Assembly (NCBI GenBank): GCA_018396995.1
Contig: JAGTQB010000002.1
Coordinates: 71,495 to 135,494 of the forward strand
Reading direction: 5' to 3'
Source of the DNA: Candidatus Bathyarchaeota archaeon
GTDB taxonomy: Archaea > Thermoproteota > Bathyarchaeia > Bathyarchaeales > DTEX01
Length of the DNA stretch: 64,000 bases
In this document: one piece after another, positions 9,913 to 27,927 of the stretch
How positions within the stretch are numbered: position 1 is the first letter of the stretch
Layout: the number at the start of each line of letters is the position of its first letter
Program-made: the position numbers and the translations under genes
Notes under the pieces: model-generated
The model's input: only the letters and a program-made list of their open reading frames with translations
Database searches by the model: none
What the model was told of the DNA's origin: nothing

Positions 9913-9913
9913 T

Positions 9914-13440: not shown

Positions 13441-13447
13441 TTTCTCA

Positions 13448-13571: not shown

Positions 13572-13593
13572 TAAAAATATTCTTTGAACACGA

Positions 13594-13602: not shown

Positions 13603-13658
13603 TGTTTTTGGGAAGATGATATAGGGGCGCTGGCCCCTCAAGTGTAGTATACATTAAG

Positions 13659-15656
13659 ATGAGATGTTTGCTTTATTCCATCAAGAATCCAATAAATAAA
13701 ATCTATATGTGGATATTAATAGATAATGGGGGTGATGTGTTATTGGGGTTAAACCAATTTGTTGTTGAATGGCCTTACCCTGTGAATTACGATGGTATTA
13801 ATGTTATTGAGACTGATGTTCTAGTGGTTGGCGGCGGAATCTCCGGTTCATGGGCTGCTATAGAGGCCGCTAGGAGGGGAGCTAAAGTTGTGGTTGCTGA
13901 GGAAATGGATGTCTTCTCAGCCGGTCCAGCTGGGTGCGACCACTGGCATAATGCCTTTGACAACCCCGCATGTAAAGTTACTCCCGATGAAGCTATTGAA
14001 ACTATGGAACGCTACGTGATGGAGCGGGGAATACCATTTAATCCCATTGGCCGCTACATAACTTATAACGAATCTTTTAAGACGCTTCTGGAACTTGAGA
14101 AATTAGGCGCTAAAATTAGAGATACAGAGGATGAATTTAAGGGGGCGCCCTTCAGGGATGAAGAAACTAAACTCTTATATGCTTACACATATGATGTAAA
14201 ATGTACCCTTAGAGTTTGGGGGCAAACCTTCCGCCAAGCCCTTTATGCCGAGCTAGTTAGGCTGAGGGTCCCGCTGTATGGCCGGGTGCTCATCACAAGC
14301 TTACTTACAGAAGACGGGAAGATTGGGGGGCGTGTAGTAGGCGCGGTGGGTGTGCACACAAGGACTGGCGAATTTTATGTCTTTAAATCAAAAGCCACAA
14401 TACTGTGTACAGGATCATTCGACGGCGGCCTCAGGATCTTTGGCTACTTAGGATATGGTTTCTACTCTTTGCATTCGCCATCAATGGCTGGAGTCGGACA
14501 TAATGCGGCATGGAGGGCAGGCGCCGAGTTTCTAGGGATAGATGCGCGCTTTAGGAGAGGCACTGGACACGGAAGCATGCCCTCATATGCTACTGGCAAT
14601 CCAAGTAACACGTGGTATCCGTGCACTATAGTGGATGCTGATGGGAAGGAGATTCCATGGATTGATCCCCTAACCATGAAGCCCGTCTCCTCGATCGAAG
14701 AGCGTGTTATATCGGACCTAAGGGGATACAAAGCATTGGGAGGGCCGCCAAGCTGGCCTGAGACTACGCCCATATCTCACGCCTTCTTCATTCCATCAGT
14801 CGCCCAAGATTTTCTTGAGCGTGTGAAGAGAGGCGAATATAAGCTGCCCCTATATGCGGATCTACCAGGCATGCCGGAGCATGAGAGGAGGGCAATATTT
14901 GGTTTAATGGTTGCTCAAGAGGGCAAAACTTGGATAGTCTACTATAATTTGACGCGGGCTGGCTTCGACCCAAATAAAGATATGCTTCAGTCTTATTGGT
15001 TTGGCGGACGCCACCTCGATCCCATCGCAAACCTATTCACCTCTGCTCATGGGGGCTTCATCCACGACTGGGATTTCAGAACGAACCTTGAAGGCTTATT
15101 CGTTGCCGGTGACGCCTGCTTTTATGGGCTGGAGCATGCTGGGGCGGCTGTTTCTGGCAGATGGGCGGGAGCAAAGGCTGCAGATTACGCTAAGAGTGTC
15201 TCTCTCGGAAAAATTGATTGGGATCAAGTTGAGAGGGAGAGGAAGCGAGTCTACGCGCCTACTGCTAAAACCTCTGGGGTAGATTGGAGAGAGCTTAACG
15301 TTGCCATATGCACCGTTATGCGCACATATGTTAATGACTTATCTAATGAGGAGATGCTGAAAATAGCCTTAAAGTGGCTTGATGAATTGGAGCGGGGTGA
15401 GGCTGAGAAAGTGGTTGCAAGGAACCCGCATGAATTAACCCGCACCCTTGAGACGCTAAGCGCCCTATCAAATGCAAAGCTGATTACACTTTATACTCTT
15501 GAGAGGGTGCGCAGGCCAAACTTAAAAGGCTTTTTAACGATGATACTTAAAAGTAGTGGTGAGGTGGAGTTTGTTGTGCGTCCTTGGAGGTGGTGGCTTT
15601 TGCCGCCATATGCTCCTACTTATAGGGAGAATTATGAGAGGCATAAGCCGTGGTGA
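13659..15656 (+). CDS. AprA-like FAD-dependent oxidoreductase (APS reductase alpha / fumarate reductase flavoprotein superfamily)
   Basis: ETDVLVVGGGISGSWAAIEAARRG dinucleotide fold. EFYVFKSKATILCTGSF, LEGLFVAGDA and ERKRVYAP resemble AprA as I remember it. A GTG at 13737 after GGGGGTGAT is a likelier start. Confidence 0.65.
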   Translation: MRCLLYSIKNPINKIYMWILIDNGGDVLLGLNQFVVEWPYPVNYDGINVIETDVLVVGGGISGSWAAIEAARRGAKVVVAEEMDVFSAGPAGCDHWHNAFDNPACKVTPDEAIETMERYVMERGIPFNPIGRYITYNESFKTLLELEKLGAKIRDTEDEFKGAPFRDEETKLLYAYTYDVKCTLRVWGQTFRQALYAELVRLRVPLYGRVLITSLLTEDGKIGGRVVGAVGVHTRTGEFYVFKSKATILCTGSFDGGLRIFGYLGYGFYSLHSPSMAGVGHNAAWRAGAEFLGIDARFRRGTGHGSMPSYATGNPSNTWYPCTIVDADGKEIPWIDPLTMKPVSSIEERVISDLRGYKALGGPPSWPETTPISHAFFIPSVAQDFLERVKRGEYKLPLYADLPGMPEHERRAIFGLMVAQEGKTWIVYYNLTRAGFDPNKDMLQSYWFGGRHLDPIANLFTSAHGGFIHDWDFRTNLEGLFVAGDACFYGLEHAGAAVSGRWAGAKAADYAKSVSLGKIDWDQVERERKRVYAPTAKTSGVDWRELNVAICTVMRTYVNDLSNEEMLKIALKWLDELERGEAEKVVARNPHELTRTLETLSALSNAKLITLYTLERVRRPNLKGFLTMILKSSGEVEFVVRPWRWWLLPPYAPTYRENYERHKPW

Positions 15657-15662
15657 TCCGAT

Positions 15663-16061
15663 ATGAGTGGTGAAAAGAAGTATTATGCTCCGTTAACCCC
15701 AAGCATAATTATAGAGTTTGATCCAAACGTTTGTGACGGATGCTATCCAACTTTCAGAGAGCCCTTATGCGTTAAGGCATGTAGAATGGATATTTTATTG
15801 CCTAACCCATATGATAGGAGTAAGCCGCCAATACTAATTTATCCGGATGAGTGCTGTGAATGCGGCTGCTGCGTACACGCATGCCCAAAATCACTCCAGG
15901 GGGCAATAAAGTTAAATTGGCCAACACATAAGCTGCCTAGGTGGAAGAGGAAGGAGACGGGTGAACACTTCAGGGTTGGGATGCCGAACCCACCGCCGCC
16001 AAACCCAACACCACCAGTCGGAGGATGGTACCCAGAAGTAAAGAGAAGGGAGGAGCGGTAA
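15663..16061 (+). CDS. AprB-like 2x[4Fe-4S] ferredoxin subunit with Pro-rich tail
   Basis: CDGC...C..VKAC and YPDECCECGCCVHACP cysteine groups resemble AprB (PxxCWECxxC). C-terminal PNPPPPNPTPPVGGWYP tail. Confidence 0.6.
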   Translation: MSGEKKYYAPLTPSIIIEFDPNVCDGCYPTFREPLCVKACRMDILLPNPYDRSKPPILIYPDECCECGCCVHACPKSLQGAIKLNWPTHKLPRWKRKETGEHFRVGMPNPPPPNPTPPVGGWYPEVKRREER

Positions 16062-16080
16062 GACGCTAAACCTGATAGGT

Positions 16081-16917
16081 ATGGAGGCGCCACCCGCCCC
16101 CCTCATAGACATCAACCCAAAACTATGCGTCTTCTGTGGAGTGTGTGAGGTTCTCTGTCCATTTGGAGCAATAAAAATATACATCAATGGCAAACGTTCA
16201 AACCCGGTTTTAGAAAAAGGTTGTCTCTCAGAAGTAATAAGGGAAATTAAGATCGACGTAGAGACATGTAGGCGTGTTAATCTTTTATGTGATAGGCTTT
16301 GTGTTGCCGTTTGCCCATTAAATCTACTTTACTTTAATGGCTTCAGCGTCTCTATAAGTGACGTGAGCAAGTGCCCTACATGCAAATGGTGTGAAAATGC
16401 TTGCCGCTCGGTTATACATGTTAGAAAGATCTTTAGTGGGGTAATTGAGGTTTATAATGAAAAGTGCCCTGTTGGATGCAAAAATTGTGTTTATCAGTGC
16501 CCGGTTGGTGCGCTATACGTTGATGAAGATGGAAAGGTGTATGTCTTAGATGACTTCTGTATCTACTGTGGAGCATGCGTAAACGTTTGTCCAATTGATG
16601 GAGCGATAAATATAAAGATAACCTATATAAACACAGCGGCCCTTGAATCAAGAATGTGGAAGATAGCCCTTGAAAAACTATCTAAGTATAACTTCATTCA
16701 AAATATTGGTGAACAAAAGGGCGATCTCGCCCAATATGCCTTATGGCCTAAGGTAATCAAGAGCAACGATGAGAGGAAATTACTTATTCAAAGGATAGTG
16801 TATACCAAAAGTTATACTCTTGTACTGGATAGAGAGGTTTGTAAGGGTTGCCGTATATGCCATCTAGTGTGCCCAAAGGGTGCAGTTATAATTAATAAAG
16901 TTTCAGACCACGGCTAA
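16081..16917 (+). CDS. polyferredoxin (multiple 4Fe-4S binding motifs)
   Basis: About six CxxCxxCxxxCP-type motifs, e.g. CVFCGVCEVLCP, CIYCGACVNVCP, CKGCRICHLVCP. Confidence 0.8.
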   Translation: MEAPPAPLIDINPKLCVFCGVCEVLCPFGAIKIYINGKRSNPVLEKGCLSEVIREIKIDVETCRRVNLLCDRLCVAVCPLNLLYFNGFSVSISDVSKCPTCKWCENACRSVIHVRKIFSGVIEVYNEKCPVGCKNCVYQCPVGALYVDEDGKVYVLDDFCIYCGACVNVCPIDGAINIKITYINTAALESRMWKIALEKLSKYNFIQNIGEQKGDLAQYALWPKVIKSNDERKLLIQRIVYTKSYTLVLDREVCKGCRICHLVCPKGAVIINKVSDHG

Positions 16918-16965
16918 AGTAGCTTTTATATGCGCTCTTATTAGAGATTATGTTGGGAGCTTTGA

Positions 16966-17706
16966 ATGATTACGGACTCTTATTCCGGGTTCATATTACC
17001 AATTTGGAGCTGGAGGACGCCTGCTACAGATATACCTGAAAAGGTATATGGTAACTTTAGGGTGACGAAGCGGGTTGTTAAGCCTGGGACAGCATGGCCA
17101 ATGTGTAGAACTCTTGGATATGATTACTGCGTCTTTATGCGGGAGGCTACATTAACTCTTCTCCAGGAGAAGGTTGGGGATAGATGGAAAGACTGGATGG
17201 TCGATAGCCCATATGAATGGTATGCTATGGGTGAGTATTCTATGCGCACCCGTGGACCAAGGGTTTTAGTGGGCGGTTTAGGTTTAGGTCTCATTTTACA
17301 TCACTTAACAATGAGAAGGGATATCGATGAGATAACAGTTGTCGAGGTGAGCGGGGACGTTATCCAAATAATCTCTCCTCATATTCCAAAGGATCGGCGA
17401 ATAGGAATAATTCAGGGAGATATCTTCGATGTGATACCGCGACTTGCATCCGAGGGTAGAGAGTTTGACACAATAATTATTGATATTTGGGCTGGGAGGG
17501 ACTATGAATTTGTTGAAGACTTTAGAAGGTTGAGGTCTATATTATATAGGTACTACGCTAATGCCTTACATCTCTTCCATCCATTCCAAAAGACCTTGGA
17601 TACGGAGTTATTCCTCAGTTATCTGGGTGACGTTAAAAAACCGATAAGATTTATTCCTGAAGATGTTCTTCACGTGCTTAGGGAGGGGAATAGTTCTAAA
17701 ATATAG
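16966..17706 (+). CDS. spermidine-synthase-like class I SAM-dependent transferase
   Basis: WMVDSPYEW...RVLVGGLGLGLILHHL...VVEVSGDV...IIIDIW resembles the spermine/spermidine synthase fold. Confidence 0.5.
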   Translation: MITDSYSGFILPIWSWRTPATDIPEKVYGNFRVTKRVVKPGTAWPMCRTLGYDYCVFMREATLTLLQEKVGDRWKDWMVDSPYEWYAMGEYSMRTRGPRVLVGGLGLGLILHHLTMRRDIDEITVVEVSGDVIQIISPHIPKDRRIGIIQGDIFDVIPRLASEGREFDTIIIDIWAGRDYEFVEDFRRLRSILYRYYANALHLFHPFQKTLDTELFLSYLGDVKKPIRFIPEDVLHVLREGNSSKI

Positions 17707-17764
17707 TAGATGAGATATTATTGCTCTAAGAACGCTTCTAAAAACTCAGTTTCTTGCCCTCGAA

Positions 17765-18562
17765 CTATATGAGGTCAATTTCATAAACTATTCTATCAAC
17801 GCCTATCTTATCTATATAGCTAGGCACCTTCTCATTTCTTACAAAAATAGTATTCCCCTTCCGTATAAGTATCGTAGGCATCGCGCTGCTCTTAAGATAA
17901 AAAGTATACTTTTGGCATTCCCTCTTACATGGGAATATTCCAACAATGTCTTCCATTCCGTATACGTCGCAGTTTATGGCTAGACATGCGCGCGTCGTTG
18001 TAACATATGCATATGGAACGTATATAGATGCAGATATCCCAGAGATGGATAGATTGATGTCAAAGCCTTGAAAAACATTGTCTAGCTCAATTCTGGTAAT
18101 GTTATTCTGTATGAGAAAATCACGGTATATCGGGTTATCGATGCTGAGTCCCCTGAAATATCTTATGGCGTCTATTGGTAGCATGCTGGCTATAAACAAT
18201 ATTCTTGGATCGCGTTTCATTTTATTTAGTAGTCTCCCCATGACCGGCTTTAGCTCAGGGTATCTTCTCTTCAGCATCCTCAGTACCCCATAATCATTGA
18301 AGACAACTTCATTTTGTGGAGTCTCGCTTGCTATGAGGTCGAGCAAGTATCTTAGTTCCCTAAGCCCCCTGTTTGTAACATATGGTGTGATGAGGGTGAA
18401 CTGAAGTTTATTTTCCCTTGCGAAATCAATGGCTCTCTTTAAGTCTTCGGGGCTGGGTAAGAGGCGCTCGCAAAACTCCTGTCCAAAATAGATTCTCTGG
18501 TAAAACTTAGTATCTATGCGGAGTATATTTTCAATTTTCGTTATATATGCTGCTCGCTCCAT
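17765..18562 (-). CDS. peptidase U32-family protein (UbiV-like small partner)
   Basis: TIM-barrel-like N-terminus (YFGQEFCERLLP). Cys cluster ACLAINC...FPCKRECQ. Overlaps the upstream U32 gene by 22 nt. Confidence 0.6.
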   Translation of the reverse strand: MERAAYITKIENILRIDTKFYQRIYFGQEFCERLLPSPEDLKRAIDFARENKLQFTLITPYVTNRGLRELRYLLDLIASETPQNEVVFNDYGVLRMLKRRYPELKPVMGRLLNKMKRDPRILFIASMLPIDAIRYFRGLSIDNPIYRDFLIQNNITRIELDNVFQGFDINLSISGISASIYVPYAYVTTTRACLAINCDVYGMEDIVGIFPCKRECQKYTFYLKSSAMPTILIRKGNTIFVRNEKVPSYIDKIGVDRIVYEIDLI

Positions 18563-19548
18563 TCTAGCATCACCTCAGGATAATAGCACATTATGACCCT
18601 GCATTCTCGATTGTAAAAGCGGTTATATAGGCTCTTAGCAAATAATCTAAAGGCTTCTCTTGAGGGTTTCTTCTCATACAAGTAGTTTAACAGCGTGCGG
18701 ATAAATGTTACATCAAGAATCTTTTTTGGCGTAGGATATCCACGCCCTACAATCTTAACGAACCCTAAGTTCATCTCATTGAAATCATATAATGCGCATG
18801 CTCCGCAGGGTCTATCATCGATGTGAAATCTCTCCCAAACCTTTTGTCTAACTCCAGCAACAATTTTCTTCTCCTCATCCTCATTAGAGTCCACAAAGAC
18901 TTCATATGACAACATACATGCATTGTTGTAGAGTGGGCCCATTGGTGGGAAATGTAGGAAGGTGCAGAATCCGTCAATATTCGCGCACTTAGAGTTCAGT
19001 ATAAAAGCGCCCAATTGAATCCCTGAAACCTCATTACAGATTTCCCTTATCTCTTCTATTGTAAGATCTCTTGGAAGCTGTACCCTTAAAACTCCCAGCT
19101 CCTGATAAAATTTTATAGCTTCAGAATTAAGCGCAACGCCGCCAATACTGACGTGCAACTTTACTCCTATATTCATCTTCCTCAGCGTTAATAGGAGGCC
19201 GAGGTCTGAGAGCACTATATAATCTACGCCGATATCAGCAGCCTTTTCCGTAATCTTTAAGAGAAGGTCGTATTGATCTGCCCTATAATAGTGTTCGTTT
19301 ATAGTTAGGGAGACCTCAGCGTTATGTGAATGAGCTATTTCAACACACTCCTCCAGCTCCTTGAAAGATTTGAGGTTAGCTGAGGGAGCCGGTCTCCTGG
19401 TTAAAGCGACTATAGCCGTGTACTTATGCAGCCACTCAGAGGGCACGAGACCGCAATAAATTTCATCTGCGCCAGCATCAATCAACTTGTCTACTTCATC
19501 AACCCTATCCACGGGAGCTAGTATCCTAATCATGCGCCCTCTACTCAA
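18541..19548 (-). CDS. peptidase U32-family protein (UbiU/YhbU-like)
   Basis: ILAPVDRVDEVDKLIDAGADEIYCG is the typical U32 N-terminus. Cys groups KCANIDGFC and RPCGAC. Confidence 0.75.
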   Translation of the reverse strand: MSRGRMIRILAPVDRVDEVDKLIDAGADEIYCGLVPSEWLHKYTAIVALTRRPAPSANLKSFKELEECVEIAHSHNAEVSLTINEHYYRADQYDLLLKITEKAADIGVDYIVLSDLGLLLTLRKMNIGVKLHVSIGGVALNSEAIKFYQELGVLRVQLPRDLTIEEIREICNEVSGIQLGAFILNSKCANIDGFCTFLHFPPMGPLYNNACMLSYEVFVDSNEDEEKKIVAGVRQKVWERFHIDDRPCGACALYDFNEMNLGFVKIVGRGYPTPKKILDVTFIRTLLNYLYEKKPSREAFRLFAKSLYNRFYNRECRVIMCYYPEVMLEWSEQHI

Positions 19549-20794
19549 GCGCCATGGCTACAAGCTCTATTAAATCATAGTATGCCATTCTCTCCCCCGC
19601 ATCAGCTATTGCCCTCTCAAAGTTTAAGGCACACCGCGGGCAACATGAGACTATTGCCTCCGCCGCGGCGTCTCTCGCCTCCTTAATTCTCTCCTTTGCA
19701 GTCCAAAGCGCGAAGCTTGGGTTAGCCTCTAGAACCCCACCTCCAGCCCCACAACACCATGCATACTCCCTTATCCTCTCCATCTCAACGAGCTCCAATC
19801 CCGGTATCGCGCGCAATACTTTCCTCGGGGCATCATAAACCCCCTTAGATCCGAAAAGCCAGACCTTTGGGGGCTCCCTCACGCCCAGCGCCTTAATCTC
19901 CCCCTGCCAAGGGACATAGGTTTCGCCGAGCCTTCCGAGCAAACATGGGTCATGATATGTTGCCCTTAAATCCACCCTTCTTGTCAGCTTTAGTCTACCT
20001 TCGTCCAGGAGTTTCTTTACAAGCTCGCTTACATGCATAACCTCAAAATTCATCTCTCTAATAACCTTCGGATACTCCCTCTTAAATGTCCCGTAGCAGT
20101 GGGCGCAGCTAACCAGTAGGGTTCTGGCTCCGGTCCTCCTAATGGAGTTAATATTATGCTCAATTAAATTTTTGGCTACGTTCCTCTGCCCGGTTCTCCA
20201 TAGGACAGCTCCGCAACAGTACTCCTCGCCTCCAAGCGTAGTAAAGTCTAGTCCAGCAGTCTTGAGTATTTTCACGGTCGCCTGTGCTATTCTTGGCTTC
20301 AAGTATGCTGTTGTGCACCCAACAAAATAGACTATCTCAGCCTTCTCCGCGGGTCCACATGCTTCCGGCATCCAGTTAAATCTCTTTTCATGGGGCTTCC
20401 CGTAGATGTTGTGGTGTCTAGTAACGTTCTCAGCAATAATCTTATGCTGGGGGAGAGGGGCTACTCCATCCTCAACGAGCTTTGCCCTGAGCTCAAGTAT
20501 TATATCGAGGACCTCGGCGTTTGCGTGAACCCATTTACATGCGTAATCGCAGTAGCCGCATATGGTACAGGAGTAAATTATTTCCTTAAGCTTCTCAGTG
20601 TAGCTCAGCTTACCTTCGAGCAGTGCGTTTGCGATGTACAGCATGCCCTGAGCCGAATATGCGTCGAATCCGAATCTTTTATGTATTGGGCAAGCCCTAT
20701 TATATTTCCAGCTCCTCTGTTTTTGGGTTGATATAACTTTGCAGAAGCCGCATCGGGTGCAGCATAATATGTCGCGCTTATAATCCTCTAGCAT
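19541..20794 (-). CDS. (Fe-S)-binding CCG-domain protein (GlcF/HdrD/GlpC-like)
   Basis: Two ferredoxin-type Cys motifs (CTRCGFC, CTICGYCDYAC) followed by two CCG-domain repeats (YCCG..., HDPC, WCCGAGGG). Confidence 0.85.
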   Translation of the reverse strand: MLEDYKRDILCCTRCGFCKVISTQKQRSWKYNRACPIHKRFGFDAYSAQGMLYIANALLEGKLSYTEKLKEIIYSCTICGYCDYACKWVHANAEVLDIILELRAKLVEDGVAPLPQHKIIAENVTRHHNIYGKPHEKRFNWMPEACGPAEKAEIVYFVGCTTAYLKPRIAQATVKILKTAGLDFTTLGGEEYCCGAVLWRTGQRNVAKNLIEHNINSIRRTGARTLLVSCAHCYGTFKREYPKVIREMNFEVMHVSELVKKLLDEGRLKLTRRVDLRATYHDPCLLGRLGETYVPWQGEIKALGVREPPKVWLFGSKGVYDAPRKVLRAIPGLELVEMERIREYAWCCGAGGGVLEANPSFALWTAKERIKEARDAAAEAIVSCCPRCALNFERAIADAGERMAYYDLIELVAMALE

Positions 20795-20805
20795 AGAACA
20801 CCCCC

Positions 20806-22314
20806 CTAAAATATTGATAATACTCCGGGGTTGAGGATATTATTAGGATCAAATATTCTCTTAAGCTGTTTAAGAATTGCCACTCCCTCAGTATACCGGT
20901 TGTATACCATGTCAGCCCAGAGACCGTAAGGCCTACTAAAGAAGGCGCCCATATTCATGAGCTCCTTGCTAGCCCTAATATAAATTCTCTTAACGATATC
21001 TGTCTCCCTTGGGTCCGCTGGGTTATATGGAAAGTCGAACTCTATGTGGTAGGCATGGCCTTGCACAATTGGCTGTATGTAGCCGCCTATATCTGTTATA
21101 GAATAGCCCATTTCAGACGCAATTCTATAAACGACCTTGGGGTATATGCTTGCTCTGCTTGGTGGTGCAAGAAAGAATACTTCGCAACATGAAGCCTTAT
21201 ACCTCAGCTTCCAATACGGCTCTTCATCCCAAGGTCTGGAGAGAAGTCTAAGCATCTTCTTCTCCTTCCCCGGAGCGCCCGGTAGCGATGGGAGGGGATC
21301 GAATGCTAGCTCCTGCGCTATGTCCATCAGACACTTCTCTTGAACTCTTATTCTCTCCTCAGCCCTCCGATATCCTCCAATCGTCAATATTACTATCCAC
21401 GGCGGAAGATTTCTCCTCAGCTTCTCAAACTCCTCAGGCCACTTCTCCGCAAGGATAACAGCCATATTAAAGTTGTTTAATGCAAGGATTTGATCGGCCA
21501 CGCTTCCCATAACCCCATATCTTAGGAGCCTATTCATGGGCTCAATAGTATCCTCAGGCTTATCAAATGGTATAAAGTAGATCTTCTGGAGGGCGGGAGC
21601 TACCTCAGCTTTAACCATAGCCCATGTAATAATTCCGAATGCTCCCTGCGCCCCCGAGAGGAGCTTAAAGTATTTTATGTCCCCTGGTCCAAAGGGATTA
21701 ACCATATCCGCATTTATCTCCTCTATTACTCCCGGACCGGAGGCGGTTCCAGTCCTGAACTCATCCCCGGTCCCGAAGATCACCTCCATTGTTAATAGTG
21801 GGTCTACGTAATCAAATTGATATTTGGGTATTGTTGGCGGCTCCCTCTCTAAGTAGCTTGTGACTACGGACTTTGATGCCCGCGGGAGGAATGGCATGTT
21901 AAGCCTTAAACCATGTTTTTCGAGTTCCGGTATGAGTTCACCGAAGGTTACACCGGGCTCAATCATCACAGCCCTATTTCTAGCATCGATTCTCAGAATA
22001 CTCTTCATCTTACTGAGGTTTACTATTATGCCCCCTTGCCTTGGTACGGTGTCTCCGCGGAAGTGGGGTGGTCCTGAGCTGACAGGTATAAGCGGAATAT
22101 TATTCTCGTTTGCGAAGAGCACTATTCTTTTAATCTCCTCCTTGCTCCTAGGGTATACCACGCATAAGGGCTTCATGGGCTTAACGAAACTATGGTCTCT
22201 TGAAAACTCCTCAAGCACTTTAGGATCATCTGAAACATTTTCTGTTCCCACAATCTCCGCTAATCTCTTAACTATCAGGTTTGGTTCCAGTAAGGTCATA
22301 TAACTTAACCTCAC
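20806..22314 (-). CDS. FAD-linked oxidase (PCMH/VAO-type, GlcD/GlcE-like)
   Basis: FAD_binding_4-type N-terminal half (IPLIPVSSGPPHFRGDTVP...MIEPGVTFGEL). Confidence 0.85.
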   Translation of the reverse strand: MRLSYMTLLEPNLIVKRLAEIVGTENVSDDPKVLEEFSRDHSFVKPMKPLCVVYPRSKEEIKRIVLFANENNIPLIPVSSGPPHFRGDTVPRQGGIIVNLSKMKSILRIDARNRAVMIEPGVTFGELIPELEKHGLRLNMPFLPRASKSVVTSYLEREPPTIPKYQFDYVDPLLTMEVIFGTGDEFRTGTASGPGVIEEINADMVNPFGPGDIKYFKLLSGAQGAFGIITWAMVKAEVAPALQKIYFIPFDKPEDTIEPMNRLLRYGVMGSVADQILALNNFNMAVILAEKWPEEFEKLRRNLPPWIVILTIGGYRRAEERIRVQEKCLMDIAQELAFDPLPSLPGAPGKEKKMLRLLSRPWDEEPYWKLRYKASCCEVFFLAPPSRASIYPKVVYRIASEMGYSITDIGGYIQPIVQGHAYHIEFDFPYNPADPRETDIVKRIYIRASKELMNMGAFFSRPYGLWADMVYNRYTEGVAILKQLKRIFDPNNILNPGVLSIF

Positions 22315-23912
22315 TCCTCTGGTATAACATAGAATTTTGGATTTGATACCAAGTTTGGATCTAAAGCCTTCTTAACCCTCATCTGCCAAATGTGGAAATT
22401 GCTATATAGTGGCCCAACTCTTTTGATATGCTCATCACCGTATGATCCAAACCGAAACATTATGTCTGGAAACTTCTCCCTAAAGTTTCTTTCCATTATT
22501 TTCCCCGCATATTCTTCCATGGCTTTCCTAGAGGCGGGGTCTGTTGGGTCGCCTAAAATTAGGTGCTCCGTGCACGCCATATGCCCATATTCTGTGGGCA
22601 CGATCCAGTAGCTGTCGGTTATGTCTACGATAAGGCCTTTCTCTACAAATTCCCTCATTATTTCAGGTATGGCCATCCCCCACTTCACCATTGTGTCAAT
22701 GGAGTCTACGCCGCAAGCGGTGCTAATGAAGCCGCCAAATTTCTGTACTCGGCAACTTGAGATTCCAAGTAGGACGCTTATCGTCGCTTGGTCAAATGTT
22801 AAGGTCTTTCCCTCTTCAAACCCATCCTCATAAAATTCTCTCGGAGCCTCCCTCCCCCCGTACTCGGCTATTATCTCTCTCACAACTTTCTCCTGATATT
22901 CCAAGTCTTCGCGGCAACAGGCTTCAATAAACACGTTAATCATGCGGGAGGTCTCAGCTTGATATATTCCACTTCTAATCTTTTCCCAGGCCTCCTCAAC
23001 CGTGGTGCAGCTCTCTATCATCATGGGCCAGTTAAAATACTTGAATATAGCTGTGCCAACTTCAGCCTTGCTTATCTCATATAAGGCGTCAGCCAAATTC
23101 CTAATACTCTTCTCCCAGCCCACTTCATTAATTCCCGGCATCTGAAACATCAATAGCTTAAATTTGTCTTCGGGAAGGTTAGTTTTATATACGAATGCTC
23201 CAGTCTTTGGATGTATAATGGTCTCTACATCAAGTTCTCTTGGACCCCACCAAGGATATAGTTTAATGGCTATTTTAGTGACTATGCCCATACCCGCCCG
23301 TGTTAGTAAGCCGTCTAGGCCTGGACCCGGCCCTGTGGGGCAGAACCAGCCAGCTCCCACACCCAGCGAACCTACCCTCACAATATCGCCGGTTGGCGTC
23401 ACCCATTCCGCGGCCAATGCGTGTCTCCGCCCATCAGAGAACCTGTTGGCCATATACCCATGCCCCTCTATACCCTTTGCCAGAGCCCCCACTAAAGCGG
23501 ACCCTACAACACTGGCCGCTGGGTACTGTAGCCCCCTCTTAAAACACTCTATCGCGAGAGCAGCTCTTGTAACCCCGGGCTCAACAACGGCATACATATC
23601 CTTCTCATTAATCTCAATTATTCTATCCATTCTCTTTAGATCGAATAGGAGCATGTCTGGCTCTGTGCACGCTGGCTGCATTGTAACGAAGCATGAGAAC
23701 CTTATCTTATACCTGTTACATACTTTTACGATTGCGGAAACCTCCTCCGTAGTCTTTGGCATAACGACAGCTGCTGGAGGATATGAGGGGGGCATCGCTC
23801 CACTGCGGTGATACGCGGCGAGCACTGCTGGGTCATCGCTTATATTCTCCGGTCCAACGATGTCCTCAATTATCCTATAAGCGATTCTAGGCAAACCCAC
23901 AATTACCACCAC
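22311..23912 (-). CDS. FAD-linked oxidase (PCMH/VAO-type), divergent second subunit
   Basis: IVGPENISDDPAVLAAY...VVEPGVTRAAL; 4-nt overlap with the downstream paralogue. Confidence 0.8.
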   Translation of the reverse strand: MVVIVGLPRIAYRIIEDIVGPENISDDPAVLAAYHRSGAMPPSYPPAAVVMPKTTEEVSAIVKVCNRYKIRFSCFVTMQPACTEPDMLLFDLKRMDRIIEINEKDMYAVVEPGVTRAALAIECFKRGLQYPAASVVGSALVGALAKGIEGHGYMANRFSDGRRHALAAEWVTPTGDIVRVGSLGVGAGWFCPTGPGPGLDGLLTRAGMGIVTKIAIKLYPWWGPRELDVETIIHPKTGAFVYKTNLPEDKFKLLMFQMPGINEVGWEKSIRNLADALYEISKAEVGTAIFKYFNWPMMIESCTTVEEAWEKIRSGIYQAETSRMINVFIEACCREDLEYQEKVVREIIAEYGGREAPREFYEDGFEEGKTLTFDQATISVLLGISSCRVQKFGGFISTACGVDSIDTMVKWGMAIPEIMREFVEKGLIVDITDSYWIVPTEYGHMACTEHLILGDPTDPASRKAMEEYAGKIMERNFREKFPDIMFRFGSYGDEHIKRVGPLYSNFHIWQMRVKKALDPNLVSNPKFYVIPEE

Positions 23913-23948
23913 CTAAAAACGTTGGAGATACGCCACCCGCACATAGTT

Positions 23949-24434
23949 TTACTTCTTGCGTAGGCGGCGGATCTCTTCAGGAGTGAAGAGCACTCGTTGC
24001 CTATGCGTTGGAATCTGGTGTCCAACGCTAGTATATGTTGATGCAAAAAGAATGTGACCCCATAGGAATGGCTTGCCAACCCTTTTTATAATGATGGGGC
24101 CATGTGGCATTCCCTTAGGAACATAAACTATGGATGTATTCTCAATAACGTGCTTTTCCTGTTCCTCACCCAAATATACTTCGACTTCGGCATCAAACTC
24201 GAAAAAGTTCGCTGGGTTGCCACCTAATATGAACAGTATTTCGTCCGAATCATGCCAATGGGGTCTACCCACCATTGTAAACGGCTCTGTTATATACATG
24301 AGTTGGAGGTCTGCTGGGAAACCGGGGAGCCTTATAAAACATTCTTCATGGCCGCACGCATGTATACTTGGGTATCCTCTTATGTTCTCTAATGGCTCCT
24401 TAATAATATACTTCCCATACTTTGTCTCGCTCAA
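23949..24434 (-). CDS. single-domain cupin, same family as the three bicupins at 26.8-29.9 kb
   Basis: PHWHDSDEILFILGG...AEVEVYLGEEQEKHVI...VPKGMPHGP aligns with each half of the 308-316-aa paralogues. Confidence 0.6.
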   Translation of the reverse strand: MSETKYGKYIIKEPLENIRGYPSIHACGHEECFIRLPGFPADLQLMYITEPFTMVGRPHWHDSDEILFILGGNPANFFEFDAEVEVYLGEEQEKHVIENTSIVYVPKGMPHGPIIIKRVGKPFLWGHILFASTYTSVGHQIPTHRQRVLFTPEEIRRLRKK

Positions 24435-24558
24435 TGTTACCTCCTCCGTGAGACTGAAGTCTCCGGAAAATATTTAAAACTTTCCTAAAGTTATTAAGCT
24501 GGCTTCAGATTTTTTAAAAAAAGATTTAAGGTGATTGTATTGTTTAGCAAGGTTTTCT

Positions 24559-24834: not shown

Positions 24835-25416
24835 TCACCTTGGCTTACATATAATCTCCTTAATTTTTCTTCTTTCTTCCTTTCTACCGAGGATAGGCTC
24901 TAATTTAAGGAAGTCTTTGCTTTTTATAGCTTCCATAATAATGGCTGTGTCTACGCCGCCACCCTTCTCATAGCCTAGTCCTCCGGTTCCGCCAATTGCA
25001 ATAACTTCTTCTCCGGGCTGAATGAAGCCGGCCTCGGTGGCCACTAATACGATCTCAACACAAACTTTGAGTCCCTCACAGAATCTGCGTAAAGTGTCCT
25101 GTAGGACTTCTGGAAACTCATATTTTACGTCTGTGGCGTAGCAGAAATTGTGCCCCATCTGCTCCAGCTTACGTCGTAAATTCTCTGGAAAACCAGGGAA
25201 GGGCGAGCCCGGCGGGCCTCTTAAACCCACGACAGTCAGCTTAATGTTAGTGTCCTTAAATATTTCTAAGGCCTTCTCAGCCGAGAAACCCGTAACTGAG
25301 GCTAAAATAACATTCTTTATTCCCCTCGCAATTGCTCTTTCCCTAGCCAATTTAAGTGTATCTTCAGTGTTATGTTTCCCCCCGCTCTCAAAGTAAACTA
25401 TCTTCTCCATAATCAT
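24835..25416 (-). CDS. pyruvate kinase C-terminal (alpha/beta) domain-like protein
   Basis: YFESGGKHNTEDTLKLARERA...VILASVTG...AIGGTGG resembles stand-alone PK_C-like proteins. Confidence 0.55.
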   Translation of the reverse strand: MIMEKIVYFESGGKHNTEDTLKLARERAIARGIKNVILASVTGFSAEKALEIFKDTNIKLTVVGLRGPPGSPFPGFPENLRRKLEQMGHNFCYATDVKYEFPEVLQDTLRRFCEGLKVCVEIVLVATEAGFIQPGEEVIAIGGTGGLGYEKGGGVDTAIIMEAIKSKDFLKLEPILGRKEERRKIKEIICKPR

Positions 25417-25497: not shown

Positions 25498-26634
25498 TTA
25501 TTGGGATAAAAGTCCACGGGCTTTCTTTAGCCAATCTATTATTGGGATTTTTCTCGGACACTTCTTTACGCACTCGCCGCATTCGTTGCAATCTTCTATT
25601 CTATGTCCCTCAATCTTATAGTAAAAGCGGGAAGTCTTAGCATCGTCATAAGCTATGGCGTCCTCATAGAGCTCAAATACGCGGGGAACATTAATCCCCT
25701 GGGGACAAGGCATACAACAATAGCATGTGGCGCACTTAATTGGTCTCATTTTGAGATAAGCATCCTTAATGTTCTCGAAGGCTATTAGCTCCTGTACGCT
25801 GAGATTGTTTGCATCAGATTTTTCTACTAATGCAATATACTCAAGCATCTGCTCTACTCCATTAAAATCAACAACAACAGTTGAAACCTCCGGGTGATTC
25901 CATATCCACCTCAGCCCCCACTCAGCTAAAGAACCCCTGCTGAGTAGCTCCTCCCAATACTTAGTAACGGGCTCAGGCGGCTTTTTAAGGAGATTACCCC
26001 CCTTAAATGGATCAGTAACAACCACAGCTAATCCATTACTAGCAGCATATTTGAGCCCGGTGATCCCGGGGTGGTGGTTTACATCAACATAGCTATACTT
26101 TATTTGGCAAAACGCCCATCCTTTATAGGCTGTTATGATATCTCTTAGGTATGGTGTGTCATCGTGGAAAGAGAACCCAACTATCCCTATTTTCCCCTCC
26201 TCAATAGTTTTATCCACCCACTCAATTATATTCAACTTCTTTATTTTAGGCCACGTCTCTCTATTCAGCTCCCCTATAACACAGAAGTCGATTCTCGAAG
26301 CTCTCAAAGTCCTGAGATATTCATCTAAATAATGGTTTAGGTCAGAAATAGAATTTATTGAGGCTATGGGAAAAGTTAGAGAAATCTTAGCTTTTTCTAG
26401 ATAATTCCCCCGAAGGGCCTCACTTATAACTTCTAGTCTTCGCCTATATGTTTCCATGTCGTAGGGGTGGCCTAAGTCAAAGTAATTTATTCCTTGATCC
26501 ACAGCACATTGTATAAGTTCAATTGCTTTATTCTCGTTCATTGAGTCTAGGTAGCAGGCGCCGAAAGATAGCACTGAAACCTCAAACTTAGTGTTACCAA
26601 ACTTTCTGTACTTCATGTTTAGCACCCGAGACAA
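25498..26634 (-). CDS. aldo/keto reductase with C-terminal 4Fe-4S domain (COG1453-like)
   Basis: MKYRKFGNTKFEVSVLSFG AKR N-terminus. C-terminal CATCYCCMPCP and CNECGECVKKCP. Confidence 0.85.
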   Translation of the reverse strand: MSRVLNMKYRKFGNTKFEVSVLSFGACYLDSMNENKAIELIQCAVDQGINYFDLGHPYDMETYRRRLEVISEALRGNYLEKAKISLTFPIASINSISDLNHYLDEYLRTLRASRIDFCVIGELNRETWPKIKKLNIIEWVDKTIEEGKIGIVGFSFHDDTPYLRDIITAYKGWAFCQIKYSYVDVNHHPGITGLKYAASNGLAVVVTDPFKGGNLLKKPPEPVTKYWEELLSRGSLAEWGLRWIWNHPEVSTVVVDFNGVEQMLEYIALVEKSDANNLSVQELIAFENIKDAYLKMRPIKCATCYCCMPCPQGINVPRVFELYEDAIAYDDAKTSRFYYKIEGHRIEDCNECGECVKKCPRKIPIIDWLKKARGLLSQ

Positions 26635-27790: not shown

Positions 27791-27927
27791 AACTATTTTC
27801 GGCTCTATCCAATATATAAGTGTGGGGGATCTATAAGTTTAAATTCGCTTTAAAATAGTGTTGCAGCAAGTTCTCTAAAAATAGAGAAGTCTTAAATACT
27901 TGGTGGAGAAAGTAAGCTGAGATTGAG

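What the first reader, a model, noticed from the sequence alone, without database searches (positions are those of the whole stretch)
17765..24434. Tightly coupled six-gene operon: cupin, two PCMH-type flavoproteins, a CCG Fe-S protein and a U32 pair
All six genes are on the minus strand, with spacings of 36 nt, a 4-nt overlap, 11 nt, an 8-nt overlap and a 22-nt overlap. This implies co-translation as one unit.

The middle three genes look like a GlcD/GlcE/GlcF-type dehydrogenase for 2-hydroxy acids or a related substrate.

The last two are a U32 'peptidase' pair, each with Cys clusters (KCANIDGFC...RPCGAC, and ACLAINC...FPCKRECQ). U32 pairs are now known as Fe-S-dependent, O2-independent hydroxylases. 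UbiU/UbiV act on ubiquinone, and RlhA and TrhP act on RNA.

I know of no described system that fuses a U32 heterodimer with a GlcDEF-like electron-transfer module and a cupin. A plausible reading is an anaerobic hydroxylation/oxidation pathway for a small organic, possibly aromatic, substrate. In that reading the flavoprotein/Fe-S part handles electrons.
Basis: inference. Interest (0 to 1): 0.65.

Follow-up and report, generated by a model that had tools for sequence, protein, structure and literature searches.

The report
U32 hydroxylase pair wired to flavo-iron-sulfur module
An uncultured hot-spring archaeon (Bathyarchaeia) carries a tight operon that joins a UbiU/UbiV-like iron-sulfur pair, of the kind thought to add oxygen to molecules without O2, to a flavoprotein/iron-sulfur electron-transfer module; the same combination recurs in many anaerobes and could reveal the missing electron acceptor of these enzymes.

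Summary
Six minus-strand genes (17765-24434) sit within 48 nt of each other or overlap, whichever start codons are used.

Five of them recur together in about 18 species-level genomes: two distinct VAO/PCMH-fold flavoproteins (FADa, FADb), a GlcF/HdrD-like CCG Fe-S protein, a U32 protein and a 265-aa partner (ORF6). The genomes span Bathyarchaeia, Hadarchaeota, Dehalococcoidia, Desulfobacterota and Actinomycetota, often with EtfAB. The cupin is linked only within Bathyarchaeia.

The U32 protein is a full-length UbiU homologue but far below the UbiU family cut-off. It keeps three UbiU cluster cysteines exactly and has four extra invariant ones.

ORF6 has no Pfam or NCBIfam model. It is a divergent U32-like TIM barrel with UbiV-type cysteines, and its family holds about 1,900 clusters at 50% identity.

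The flavoproteins are not GlcD/GlcE orthologues. FADb lacks the two GlcD motifs; the phenol-oxidase tyrosine is absent from both.

Best reading (inferred, untested): an O2-independent U32 hydroxylase whose electrons pass through the CCG protein to the flavoproteins and ETF. The setting looks catabolic and probably aromatic.

I found no published description. I rate it a new variant of a known kind, interest about 0.66.

The parts
24439..24479 (-). Putative operon promoter and ribosome-binding region: TATA-like TTTTAAATA (24471-24479) and GGAGGAGGT (24439-24447) just upstream of the cupin TTG start
   Evidence: Read from the sequence. It follows a 400-nt intergenic gap after the upstream gene. 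Its function is inferred, not shown.
23949..24434 (-). 161-aa single-domain cupin with intact metal motifs (HWHDSDE...G and PKGMPH). It is a single-domain relative of the three bicupin-like paralogues at 26840-29869.
   Evidence: Pfam Cupin_2 matches only below cut-off: 19.1 bits against 27.2. BLASTP to both halves of the bicupin gives E 4e-13 and 5e-11. Homologues lie near the U32 gene only in Bathyarchaeia loci L010, L011 and L012.
22311..23912 (-). FADa: VAO/PCMH-fold flavoprotein (533 aa; probable start GTG 23900). It belongs to a distinct orthologous family that is often duplicated in tandem in Dehalococcoidia.
   Evidence: Pfam FAD_binding_4, E 1.2e-20. The AF2 model has pLDDT 79.5 and gives TM 0.70-0.74 to vanillyl-alcohol dehydrogenase, PCMH and 4-ethylphenol oxidase, and 0.68 to LDHD. 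It is a separate family from FADb. It does not match GlcE.
20806..22314 (-). FADb: second VAO/PCMH-fold flavoprotein (502 aa; probable start ATG 22299). It is the more conserved of the two.
   Evidence: Pfam FAD_binding_4 plus the FAD-oxidase_C tail. hhalign to E. coli GlcD covers the full length (prob 98.6%), but the GlcD motifs HAGDGNMHP and SGEHGIG are replaced. Orthologues score 370-880 bits across phyla.
19541..20794 (-). CCG Fe-S protein (417 aa): an N-terminal 2x[4Fe-4S] ferredoxin-like domain plus two complete CCG domains. GlcF/HdrD/GlpC/TfrB-like, soluble.
   Evidence: Pfam CCG x2 (E 1.3e-31) and Fer4_8. The best NCBIfam match is TfrB at 178 bits, below cut-off. Best PDB matches are an 'iron-sulfur-binding reductase' (9ojn) and HdrB. 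It is 24% identical to GlcF over the full length. No TM helix. In Thermodesulfobacteriota it also occurs paired with the U32 protein alone.
18541..19548 (-). U32 protein, UbiU-like (335 aa; probable start ATG 19533, giving 330 aa). It has eight invariant cysteines.
   Evidence: Pfam Peptidase_U32, E 8.7e-29. NCBIfam UbiU scores 88 bits against a cut-off of 440. The clade profile against E. coli UbiU gives prob 100%, E 7e-41, over the full length. C188/C195/C211 align exactly with UbiU ligands C169/C176/C193. C32, C251, C316 and C321 are extra invariant cysteines.
17765..18562 (-). ORF6: 265-aa partner of the U32 protein. It is a divergent U32-like TIM barrel with a UbiV-type cysteine pattern (C31...C193-x18-C212-x3-C216) and belongs to a large unannotated family.
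   Evidence: No Pfam or NCBIfam hit. For the AF2 model the best PDB fold match is the U32 peptidase Mk0906, 5D88 (E 9.7e-6, TM 0.48-0.51). Deep-profile hhalign to the partner U32 clade gives prob 75%, P 2.5e-5. C31, C212 and C216 align with UbiV C39, C193 and C197, and C193 lies one column from C180. It is adjacent to the U32 gene in 48 loci. The family holds 1,888 clusters at 50% identity.
17740..17744 (-). Oligo-T run 21 nt after the ORF6 stop codon, a possible archaeal terminator. The next gene downstream is convergent.
   Evidence: Read from the sequence and the ORF list. Inferred.
25498..26634 (-). Possible accessory gene: an aldo/keto reductase with a C-terminal 2x[4Fe-4S] domain, about 1 kb upstream of the operon on the same strand.
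   Evidence: Pfam Aldo_ket_red plus Fer4. Homologues lie beside the module in Bathyarchaeia L076 and Omnitrophota L074 and L088. The linkage is weak and was not followed further.

Best explanation
The operon encodes a soluble multi-subunit oxidoreductase assembled from two modules that also exist on their own.

Module 1 is a UbiU/UbiV-like heterodimer, the U32 protein plus ORF6. Each subunit probably binds at least one [4Fe-4S] cluster. By analogy with UbiU-UbiV, TrhP and RlhA it would carry out an O2-independent hydroxylation of an sp2 C-H. In the characterised systems the oxygen comes from prephenate.

Module 2 is a heterotrimer of two different VAO/PCMH-fold flavoproteins (FADa, FADb) and a GlcF/HdrD-like CCG Fe-S protein. 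Many organisms add EtfAB to it.

I propose that the CCG protein is the hub. It would take the two electrons released by the hydroxylation from the U32 clusters and pass them to the flavins. From there they would go to ETF, ferredoxin or another soluble acceptor, or to a substrate turned over at one of the flavoproteins.

The pathway served is most likely catabolism of a small, probably aromatic or hydrophobic, compound. The Bathyarchaeia-specific metal cupin would be a lineage-specific accessory step.

Shown here: gene anatomy, homologies, cysteine conservation and conserved synteny. Inferred: complex formation, direction of electron flow, the hydroxylase chemistry and the substrate class.
For: Synteny:
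- FADa, FADb, CCG, U32 and ORF6 are co-linear in 17 of 78 species-representative loci (18 counting a skipped duplicate locus). These cover Bathyarchaeia, Hadarchaeota, Dehalococcoidia/Chloroflexota, Desulfomonilia, Desulfonema-like bacteria and Actinomycetota. Genes often overlap, and EtfA/EtfB are adjacent in many.

CCG as the hub:
- Closely related CCG proteins (345-355 bits to the window protein) pair with the U32 protein alone in eight Thermodesulfobacteriota species.
- In metagenomic locus L007 the ORF6-U32 pair sits in a same-strand gene run with a NarI-like cytochrome b and a CCG/Fer4 protein; L026 also has a CCG gene after the ORF6-U32 pair.

U32 pair:
- The U32 clade aligns with UbiU over its full length, E 7e-41.
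- Three UbiU cluster ligands are conserved exactly.
- ORF6 is U32-like by fold and by deep profile, and carries UbiV-type ligands.
- ORF6-family domains are fused to class I SAM methyltransferases in four representative proteins. That is the hydroxylate-then-methylate logic of ubiquinone synthesis.

Need for an acceptor:
- The published mechanism for U32 hydroxylases requires a still unidentified two-electron acceptor reached through the Fe-S clusters (PMC10990095).

Catabolic context:
- L070/L071/L073 have a one-strand operon: EtfAB-FADb-CCG-FADa-acyl-CoA mutase-MeaB-U32-ORF6-FAD_binding_3-BcrAD x2-HGD-D x2-hydantoinase A/B.
- L066 has a sigma-54/PAS activator upstream.
- L075 has a CoA ligase, and an SCP2 (UbiT-like) gene beside the U32 gene.
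- L080 has a corrinoid protein plus a UroD-like methyltransferase upstream.
- The window itself holds a tannase/feruloyl esterase, a CoA ligase and an AsnC regulator.

None of the six proteins has a TM helix.
Against: - There are no biochemical or expression data.
- The two modules are separable. FADb-CCG-FADa occurs without any U32 gene nearby in Nezhaarchaeota, another archaeal contig and Thermodesulfobacteriota. U32-ORF6 occurs without it in 26 loci. The link could therefore be at pathway level only.
- In most bacterial loci FADa, not the CCG gene, is next to the U32 gene.
- No chorismate or prephenate genes lie near any of the 88 loci or in the window.
- The flavoproteins fit neither the 2-hydroxy-acid nor the 4-phenol subfamily at signature positions. 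Their own substrate is unknown, and they may be catalytic rather than mere electron carriers.
- The ORF6 model has low confidence in its cysteine region. ORF6-U32 homology is not seen with shallow profiles or by sequence search of the PDB.
- The window lacks ETF genes beside the operon.
Confidence: 0.5

Rival explanations
1. Two independent enzymes of one pathway, with no electron exchange. The flavoprotein/CCG trio (with or without ETF) is a self-contained dehydrogenase that oxidises or hydroxylates one intermediate. The U32-ORF6 pair acts on another intermediate and uses a general cellular redox partner.
For: The trio occurs alone in several lineages. The pair occurs alone in many more. In the common bacterial order, FADb-CCG-FADa-U32-ORF6, the CCG gene is not adjacent to the U32 gene. 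Both flavoproteins are full-length two-domain enzymes that could be catalytic.
Against: CCG-U32 two-gene pairs without any flavoprotein argue for a direct CCG-U32 partnership. So do the ORF6-U32 pairs with a CCG gene nearby on the same strand (L007, together with a NarI-like gene; L026). Overlapping or tightly spaced genes across the module boundary in archaea suggest co-assembly.
Confidence: 0.25
2. The U32-ORF6 pair works reductively, for example as an IspH-like Fe-S dehydroxylase of a hydroxylated aromatic or acyl-CoA compound. The flavoprotein/CCG/ETF module would supply low-potential electrons, possibly by flavin-based bifurcation.
For: A review notes that the Fe-S chemistry of U32 enzymes could resemble IspH. 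ETF, CCG and FAD combinations are typical of electron-bifurcating or confurcating complexes; this rests on established knowledge of LctBCD and Hdr systems, and LctD is among the PDB hits. A class I benzoyl-CoA-reductase-like set lies downstream in L070/71/73.
Against: Every U32 member with a genetically assigned role is linked to hydroxylation (PMC6747719, PMC10990095, PMC5727448, PMC6599085). The methyltransferase fusions of the ORF6 family fit formation of a hydroxyl group, not its removal.
Confidence: 0.1
3. The U32-ORF6 pair is a housekeeping modifier of RNA or of a cofactor or lipid, as TrhP, RlhA and UbiUV are. Its position next to the flavoprotein trio would reflect shared regulation or a supporting role, such as recycling a co-product like phenylpyruvate.
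For: Many members of the wider clade sit among housekeeping genes: ispG-proS-relA, dnaJ, ATP synthase, nusA-infB. One Nezhaarchaeota trio abuts a shikimate/prephenate operon. An SCP2 gene lies beside the U32 gene in L075.
Against: The trio-linked subclade lies in inducible-looking catabolic operons with a sigma-54 activator, CoA ligases, a BCR-like reductase and carboxylase-like genes. No aro genes are near any U32 locus. FADb lacks the 2-hydroxy-acid dehydrogenase motifs expected of a phenylpyruvate/phenyllactate enzyme.
Confidence: 0.1
4. The U32 proteins are peptidases (collagenase-like), as the family name says, and the neighbouring redox genes are unrelated.
For: Only the historical family name and the database labels 'putative protease' and 'collagenase-like PrtC'.
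Against: The invariant cysteine sets match the Fe-S ligands of UbiU and UbiV. Synteny with redox proteins is conserved across two domains. There is no signal peptide or TM segment.
Confidence: 0.02

Closest known systems
UbiU-UbiV (with UbiT), the O2-independent ubiquinone hydroxylase system of Proteobacteria
   Same: - It is a two-gene pair of a ~330-aa U32 protein and a smaller, much more divergent partner.
- The U32 clade aligns with UbiU over its full length (E 7e-41).
- The cysteine patterns are of UbiU type (C-x6-C-x15-C...C) and UbiV type (C...C-x18-C-x3-C).
- An SCP2 (UbiT-like) gene lies beside the U32 gene in one Actinomycetota locus.
   Different: - It scores 88 bits against the 440-bit UbiU cut-off.
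- The hosts include archaea and other strict anaerobes, lineages not known to make ubiquinone (from general knowledge, not checked here).
- It has four additional invariant cysteines.
- The partner is not detectable as U32 by Pfam.
- It is hard-wired to a CCG Fe-S protein, two flavoproteins and often ETF, which UbiUVT lacks.
- Its context is catabolic, not quinone biosynthesis.
GlcDEF glycolate dehydrogenase and related GlcD/GlcF-type D-2-hydroxy-acid dehydrogenases
   Same: Three genes: two FAD_binding_4 proteins plus one Fe-S protein with a 2x[4Fe-4S] domain and two CCG domains. CCG is 24% identical to GlcF over the full length. FADb aligns with GlcD over the full length.
   Different: - FADa is a full-length 533-aa enzyme with no match to the 350-aa GlcE.
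- The GlcD motifs HAGDGNMHP and SGEHGIG are replaced in FADb.
- The flavoproteins score 66-80 bits against a cut-off of 568, and CCG scores 54 against 333 for GlcF.
p-Cresol methylhydroxylase / vanillyl-alcohol oxidase 4-phenol oxidoreductases
   Same: These are the best sequence and fold matches in the PDB for both flavoproteins. From my recollection of Geobacter metallireducens (not checked here), PCMH there uses two different flavoprotein isoforms and Hdr-like electron-transfer genes.
   Different: In the profile alignments the phenolate-binding Tyr of the GYGG motif is absent from both proteins. The C-terminal Tyr-Arg pair is S-R in FADb and absent in FADa. There is no cytochrome c subunit. 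The similarity scores are no better than those to D-lactate dehydrogenases.
ETF-coupled flavoenzyme complexes (LctBCD lactate dehydrogenase-EtfAB; EtfD/EMO-type CCG ETF oxidoreductases)
   Same: EtfA and EtfB are adjacent to the module in Hadarchaeota, Actinomycetota, Desulfomonilia, Desulfonema-like bacteria and Nezhaarchaeota. LctD is among the PDB hits. The best PDB hit of CCG is a 1042-aa 'iron-sulfur-binding reductase'.
   Different: The CCG protein here is soluble and lacks the membrane cytochrome b domain. The window locus has no ETF genes beside it. A U32 pair has not been described in any such complex.

Membership tests
Peptidase U32 family (PF01136): the 335-aa protein | Significant match to the U32 domain model above the Pfam gathering score | tested here: met
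   100.9 bits against a cut-off of 22.4, residues 96-311.
Peptidase U32 family (PF01136): ORF6 | Significant match to the U32 domain model | tested here: not met
   No Pfam or NCBIfam hit at E 0.01. None of 120 homologues carries a Pfam domain. Relatedness shows only by fold (5D88 is the best hit) and by deep profile-profile comparison (prob 75%, P 2.5e-5).
UbiU (NF047963 equivalog) | Score above the curated equivalog cut-off | tested here: not met
   88.1 bits against a cut-off of 440. It is homologous over the full length but not an orthologue.
UbiU/UbiV-type Fe-S U32 proteins | Four conserved cysteines that ligate a [4Fe-4S] cluster: UbiU C169, C176, C193, C232; UbiV C39, C180, C193, C197 (PMC6747719) | tested here: met
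   In the U32 protein, C188, C195 and C211 align exactly with UbiU C169, C176 and C193. The fourth ligand falls in a gapped region, with invariant C248 and C251 nearby. In ORF6, C31, C212 and C216 align exactly with UbiV C39, C193 and C197, and C193 is one column from C180. All are invariant in the families. Cluster binding itself was not tested.
UbiU/UbiV-type Fe-S U32 proteins | Heterodimer formation and prephenate-dependent hydroxylation | not testable with these tools
   The only support is genomic pairing, with overlapping genes in 48 loci.
UbiUVT pathway | Association with the SCP2 protein UbiT and with ubiquinone biosynthesis genes | tested here: not met
   There is no SCP2 or ubi gene in the window. 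One Actinomycetota locus has an SCP2 gene next to the U32 gene.
GlcDEF glycolate dehydrogenase | GlcD-type catalytic subunit above the equivalog cut-off, with the conserved HxGDGNxH and GEHG motifs | tested here: not met
   TIGR00387 scores 80 bits (FADb) and 66 bits (FADa) against 567.9. In the full-length hhalign the two motifs of E. coli GlcD face GYIQP and FSRPYG in FADb. That these motifs form the metal/catalytic site is from my knowledge of D-2-hydroxy-acid dehydrogenase structures.
GlcDEF glycolate dehydrogenase | Short GlcE-type second FAD subunit | tested here: not met
   FADa against E. coli GlcE gives prob 5%. FADa is a complete two-domain VAO-fold protein.
GlcF/HdrD/GlpC-type CCG Fe-S proteins | An N-terminal 2x[4Fe-4S] ferredoxin-like domain followed by two CCG domains (CXnCCGXmCXXC) | tested here: met
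   Fer4_8 plus two CCG stretches. Both CCG motifs can be read in the sequence. It is 24% identical to GlcF over the full length. No equivalog cut-off is reached, so it is a family member of unassigned function.
VAO/PCMH 4-phenol oxidoreductases | VAO two-domain fold | tested here: met
   The FADa model gives TM 0.70-0.74 to 8S7N, 1DII, 7PBG and 5FXD.
VAO/PCMH 4-phenol oxidoreductases | Phenolate-binding Tyr/Tyr/Arg residues (VAO Y108, Y503, R504), and a cytochrome c partner for PCMH | tested here: not met
   In the profile alignments the GYGG Tyr faces Arg in FADb and a non-conserved stretch in FADa. The C-terminal YR faces S-R in FADb and nothing conserved in FADa. The C-terminal alignments have low scores, so this is tentative. 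There is no cytochrome c gene in the operon. The residue roles are from my knowledge of VAO and PCMH structures.
Cupin superfamily | The two cupin motifs with their metal ligands (HxH...E...G and PxG..H) | tested here: met
   HWHDSDE...G and PKGMPH can be read in the sequence. Pfam Cupin_2 matches only below cut-off, 19.1 against 27.2. Metal binding was not tested.

The most novel reading that the evidence does not exclude
The CCG Fe-S protein, with the two VAO-fold flavoproteins and ETF behind it, is the dedicated physiological electron acceptor of a prephenate-type U32 hydroxylase. The combined complex would perform O2-independent ring hydroxylation in the catabolism of aromatic (for example lignin- or tannin-derived) or hydrophobic compounds by Bathyarchaeia, Hadarchaeota, Dehalococcoidia and sulfate reducers. 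That would be the first catabolic role and the first identified redox partner for the U32 hydroxylase family.
Probability: 0.3. Interest if true: 0.8.

Novelty: new variant of a known kind. Interest (0 to 1): 0.66.

Why it matters
U32 'peptidases' are emerging as a widespread family of O2-independent hydroxylases. No in vitro assay exists, and the oxidant that takes the two electrons is explicitly unknown (PMC10990095). All assigned roles so far are biosynthetic: ubiquinone, tRNA and rRNA.

This module offers a natural experiment. In a defined clade, the U32 pair is genetically coupled to a specific Fe-S protein, sometimes as a bare two-gene unit and sometimes extended by flavoproteins, ETF or a cytochrome b. 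That names concrete candidate partners for reconstitution.

It also brings to light a family of about 1,900 clusters at 50% identity of UbiV-like partner proteins that has no Pfam or NCBIfam model, so current annotation misses half of each pair.

If the catabolic reading is right, it would add a new way of activating or transforming aromatic compounds without oxygen. The lineages concerned, Bathyarchaeia and Dehalococcoidia, dominate anoxic sediments.

Tried and rejected
- **Shallow profiles.** hhalign with 20-sequence alignments found no ORF6-U32, ORF6-UbiV or ORF6-UbiU similarity. Only deeper profiles gave a significant in-register match to the partner U32 clade. ORF6 against UbiV stays weak (P 0.006). 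The bona fide U32 clade also fails to find UbiV (prob 4%), so that negative result is uninformative.
- **PDB sequence searches.** Searches with ORF6, as a single sequence and as a profile, found nothing relevant. The U32 protein alone also found no solved homologue by phmmer.
- **Assigning the flavoproteins to a subfamily.** PDB profile hits and Foldseek score 4-phenol oxidases and D-lactate dehydrogenases almost equally. Signature residues of both subfamilies are missing, so neither assignment was accepted.
- **A link to prephenate supply.** One Nezhaarchaeota trio abuts a shikimate/PheA operon. No PheA, chorismate synthase or EPSP synthase homologue is found in any of 88 U32 loci or in the window. 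I treat the Nezhaarchaeota case as an isolated observation.
- **Acetone pathway.** The mutase-containing Desulfonema-type operon might have been the known acetone (2-hydroxyisobutyryl-CoA mutase) pathway. The title and abstract listing from one literature search showed no link, and I did not pursue it.
- **Promoter and terminator scan.** The sigma-70 and intrinsic-terminator scan gave counts at chance level, and it does not apply to archaea anyway.
- **Upstream plus-strand genes.** The FAD_binding_2 protein, the two ferredoxins and the 246-aa ORF (13659-17706) have no homologues in related loci, so I excluded them from the unit.
- **Literature.** Searches for U32 together with Bathyarchaeota, CCG/heterodisulfide, benzoyl-CoA or Dehalococcoidia returned nothing relevant. 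I recalled a ferredoxin (YfhL) requirement for TrhP, but it could not be verified in the library and I do not use it.

Full report
**1. Observation**

- cupin 23949-24434 (161 aa)
- FADa 22311-23912 (533 aa)
- FADb 20806-22314 (502 aa)
- CCG protein 19541-20794 (417 aa)
- U32 protein 18541-19548 (335 aa)
- ORF6 17765-18562 (265 aa)

With these coordinates the spacings are exactly as stated. Homologue N-termini and Shine-Dalgarno-like motifs suggest three starts lie a few codons downstream: FADa at GTG 23900, FADb at ATG 22299 and U32 at ATG 19533. Two of the reported overlaps would then become gaps of 7-11 nt. This does not change the picture of a compact unit.

A TATA-like box and a strong GGAGGAGGT motif precede the cupin after a 400-nt gap. 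An oligo-T run follows ORF6, and the next gene is convergent. None of the six proteins has a predicted membrane helix.

The organism is an uncultured Candidatus Bathyarchaeia archaeon; the U32 protein is 100% identical to an NCBI MAG protein. The window also carries archaeal RNA polymerase, TFIIB and AglB genes.

**2. What the proteins are**

*U32 protein.* It is a clear Pfam U32 member. A deep profile of its clade aligns with E. coli UbiU over the full length (prob 100%, E 7e-41). It scores only 88 bits against the 440-bit UbiU equivalog cut-off, and a rough NJ tree places the whole clade far from UbiU.

In an L-INS-i alignment, C188, C195 and C211 coincide exactly with UbiU cluster ligands C169, C176 and C193. 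The fourth ligand falls in a gapped region next to invariant C248 and C251. Four more cysteines (C32, C251, C316, C321) are invariant in the clade with no UbiU counterpart. This hints at a second metal site.

*ORF6.* It has no Pfam or NCBIfam match, and none of its 120 best homologues carries a Pfam domain. Shallow profile comparisons and PDB sequence searches were negative. Three lines of evidence nevertheless make it a very divergent U32/UbiV-like protein:
- The best PDB fold match of its AF2 model (pLDDT 72.7) is the only solved U32 structure, 5D88 (E 9.7e-6, TM about 0.5).
- A deep profile aligns residues 21-161 in register with residues 27-159 of the partner U32 clade (prob 75%, P 2.5e-5).
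- Its invariant cysteines C31, C193, C212 and C216 fall on, or one column from, UbiV ligands C39, C180, C193 and C197 (ligands from PMC6747719).

The family is large: 1,888 clusters at 50% identity with E<=1e-3. Four representatives are fusions of the ORF6 domain with a class I SAM methyltransferase. That is the hydroxylate-then-methylate logic of quinone biosynthesis.

*CCG protein.* It has a 2x[4Fe-4S] ferredoxin-like N-terminus and two complete CCG domains. It is 24% identical to E. coli GlcF over the full length. Its best hits are TfrB, LdhH, GlpC and HdrB-type proteins, all below curated cut-offs.

*FADa and FADb.* They are two distinct orthologous families. Both hit the PDB through the FAD domain and the last ~70 residues only. 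4-Phenol oxidoreductases (PCMH, eugenol oxidase, vanillyl-alcohol dehydrogenase) and D-lactate/glycolate dehydrogenases score almost equally.

The AF2 model of FADa (pLDDT 79.5) is a complete two-domain VAO fold, with TM 0.70-0.74 to 4-phenol enzymes and 0.68 to LDHD. FADa does not match GlcE.

FADb aligns with GlcD over the full length, but the GlcD motifs HAGDGNMHP and SGEHGIG are replaced. The GYGG tyrosine of VAO/PCMH enzymes is absent from both proteins, and the C-terminal Tyr-Arg pair is S-R in FADb and absent in FADa. They therefore form an uncharacterised subfamily. 'GlcDEF-like' describes the architecture, not the chemistry.

*Cupin.* It has intact metal motifs and is a single-domain relative of three ~315-aa bicupin-like paralogues a few kb upstream. 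None of these has a database model.

**3. Is the arrangement conserved?**

Yes. I fetched 79 species-representative loci for the U32 clade, plus metagenomic contigs. I then searched their six-frame ORFs with the window proteins and clustered all neighbours.

FADa, FADb, CCG, U32 and ORF6 occur together, usually co-directional and often overlapping, in:
- Bathyarchaeia (L002, L010, L012-L014, L076)
- Hadarchaeota (L080)
- Dehalococcoidia/Chloroflexota (L001, L015-L017, L022), where FADa is present in up to three or four tandem copies
- Desulfomonilia (L066, L068)
- Desulfonema-like bacteria (L070, L071, L073)
- Actinomycetota (L075)

The common order elsewhere is FADb-CCG-FADa-U32-ORF6. The window's close relatives have FADa-FADb-CCG-U32-ORF6. 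EtfA and EtfB are adjacent in many of these loci.

The wider U32 clade shows other architectures:
- CCG-U32 alone in eight Thermodesulfobacteriota species
- ORF6-U32 followed by a NarI-like cytochrome b and a CCG/Fer4 protein in L007 (L026 also has a CCG gene after the pair)
- U32-ORF6 inside radical-SAM-rich clusters in Omnitrophota
- U32 with a metallo-beta-lactamase and radical-SAM genes

Conversely, the FADb-CCG-FADa trio occurs without any U32 gene nearby in Nezhaarchaeota (with EtfAB), in another archaeal contig and in Thermodesulfobacteriota.

Two autonomous modules are therefore combined in a coherent subclade. The recurring direct partner of the U32 protein is the CCG protein. The cupin accompanies the module only in Bathyarchaeia (L010-L012).

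**4. Context**

The trio-linked loci look catabolic:
- L070/71/73 carry a one-strand operon: EtfAB-FADb-CCG-FADa-acyl-CoA mutase (large subunit, B12 subunit, MeaB)-U32-ORF6-FAD_binding_3-two BcrAD ATPases-two HGD-D subunits (a class I benzoyl-CoA-reductase-like set)-hydantoinase A/B.
- L066 has a sigma-54/PAS activator upstream.
- L075 has a CoA ligase and, between the U32 gene and ORF6, an SCP2 (UbiT-like) gene plus MoxR, VWA and PNPOx-like genes.
- L080 has a corrinoid protein and a UroD-like methyltransferase upstream, of the kind found in O-demethylases.
- L010 has an MFS transporter.
- In Dehalococcoidia a thiolase and a DUF35-type protein lie nearby.

The window itself carries, within 20 kb, a tannase/feruloyl-esterase family protein, an acyl/aryl-CoA ligase, an AsnC regulator, an AKR-FeS protein, the bicupins and an acetylene-hydratase-like Mo/W enzyme.

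**5. Mechanism**

Published work proposes that U32 hydroxylases oxidise the substrate by two electrons and quench the cation with hydroxide released from prephenate, giving phenylpyruvate. The Fe-S clusters would relay the electrons to an acceptor that is still unidentified (PMC10990095).

The anatomy here fits a model in which the CCG protein receives those electrons from the U32-ORF6 pair. It would hand them to the flavoproteins, and then to ETF or another soluble carrier. In other lineages a cytochrome b appears to stand in for the flavoproteins.

This is inference from synteny and homology. I put it at about 0.5. The main rival (0.25) is pathway-level linkage without electron exchange. A reductive (dehydroxylase) role and a housekeeping role are less likely. 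A peptidase role is very unlikely.

**6. Novelty**

Literature searches for U32 together with Bathyarchaeota, CCG/heterodisulfide/FAD-binding, benzoyl-CoA, Dehalococcoidia or archaea found no description of such a system. A 2024 review lists only the ubiquinone and RNA roles.

I classify it as a new variant of a known kind: a UbiU/UbiV-like hydroxylase pair with a new, dedicated redox module and a probable catabolic role. The partner family (ORF6) is effectively unannotated.

Noticed in passing
window 26840-27790 (-), 27928-28875 (+), 28943-29869 (-): Three paralogous ~310-aa bicupin-like proteins with no Pfam or NCBIfam model and no PDB sequence hit. Both halves are related to the operon's 161-aa cupin. 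A homologue lies directly beside the U32 gene in Bathyarchaeia locus L012.
   Followed up: partly
window 40499-43048 (+); also L002 1578-4148: An 849-aa molybdopterin/tungstopterin enzyme whose best solved relative by far is acetylene hydratase (2E7Z, E 2.7e-110). A similar 856-aa protein lies just upstream of the flavoprotein/CCG/U32 cluster in another Bathyarchaeia genome.
   Followed up: partly
window 37188-39542 (-): A 784-aa tannase/feruloyl-esterase family protein with a C-terminal coiled-coil-like tail. This is unusual for an archaeon and fits polyphenol or lignin-derived substrate use.
   Followed up: no
window 16966-17706 (+): A 246-aa ORF convergent with ORF6. It has a glycine-rich VLVGGLGLG motif resembling SAM-methyltransferase/spermidine-synthase folds but no database hit, and it is not conserved in related loci. 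This is of interest because ORF6-family domains are fused to methyltransferases elsewhere (P0407, P0433, P0456, P0470).
   Followed up: partly
L092 (Nezhaarchaeota JASFYF010000001.1) 6804-19596: A FADb-like-CCG-FADa-EtfA-EtfB cluster without U32 lies back-to-back with a complete shikimate operon that includes chorismate mutase/prephenate dehydratase. No such adjacency was found in any of the 88 U32 loci.
   Followed up: yes
window 25498-26634 (-) and 24835-25416 (-): An aldo/keto reductase fused to a 2x[4Fe-4S] domain recurs beside the module in L076, L074 and L088. Next to it is a stand-alone pyruvate-kinase C-terminal-like 193-aa protein of unknown role.
   Followed up: partly
window 13659-16917 (+): A 665-aa SdhA/TfrA/AprA-like FAD_binding_2 flavoprotein is followed by a 132-aa ferredoxin and a 278-aa polyferredoxin. 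This is an unassigned redox trio that is not conserved next to the module elsewhere.
   Followed up: no
window 6079-9912 (-): RNA polymerase subunit A appears as a single 1277-aa ORF holding Rpb1 domains 1-5, rather than the split A'/A'' genes common in archaea.
   Followed up: no
window 62731-62830 (+): ARAGORN calls a 100-nt tRNA-Tyr with anticodon ATA that Rfam does not report at gathering threshold. It may be an intron-containing archaeal tRNA or a miscall.
   Followed up: no
L074, L077, L078, L082, L084-L088 (Omnitrophota/Planctomycetales): In these phyla the U32-ORF6 pair is embedded in clusters rich in radical SAM, B12-binding radical SAM and DegT aminotransferase genes. This suggests a separate biosynthetic role for the pair.
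   Followed up: no
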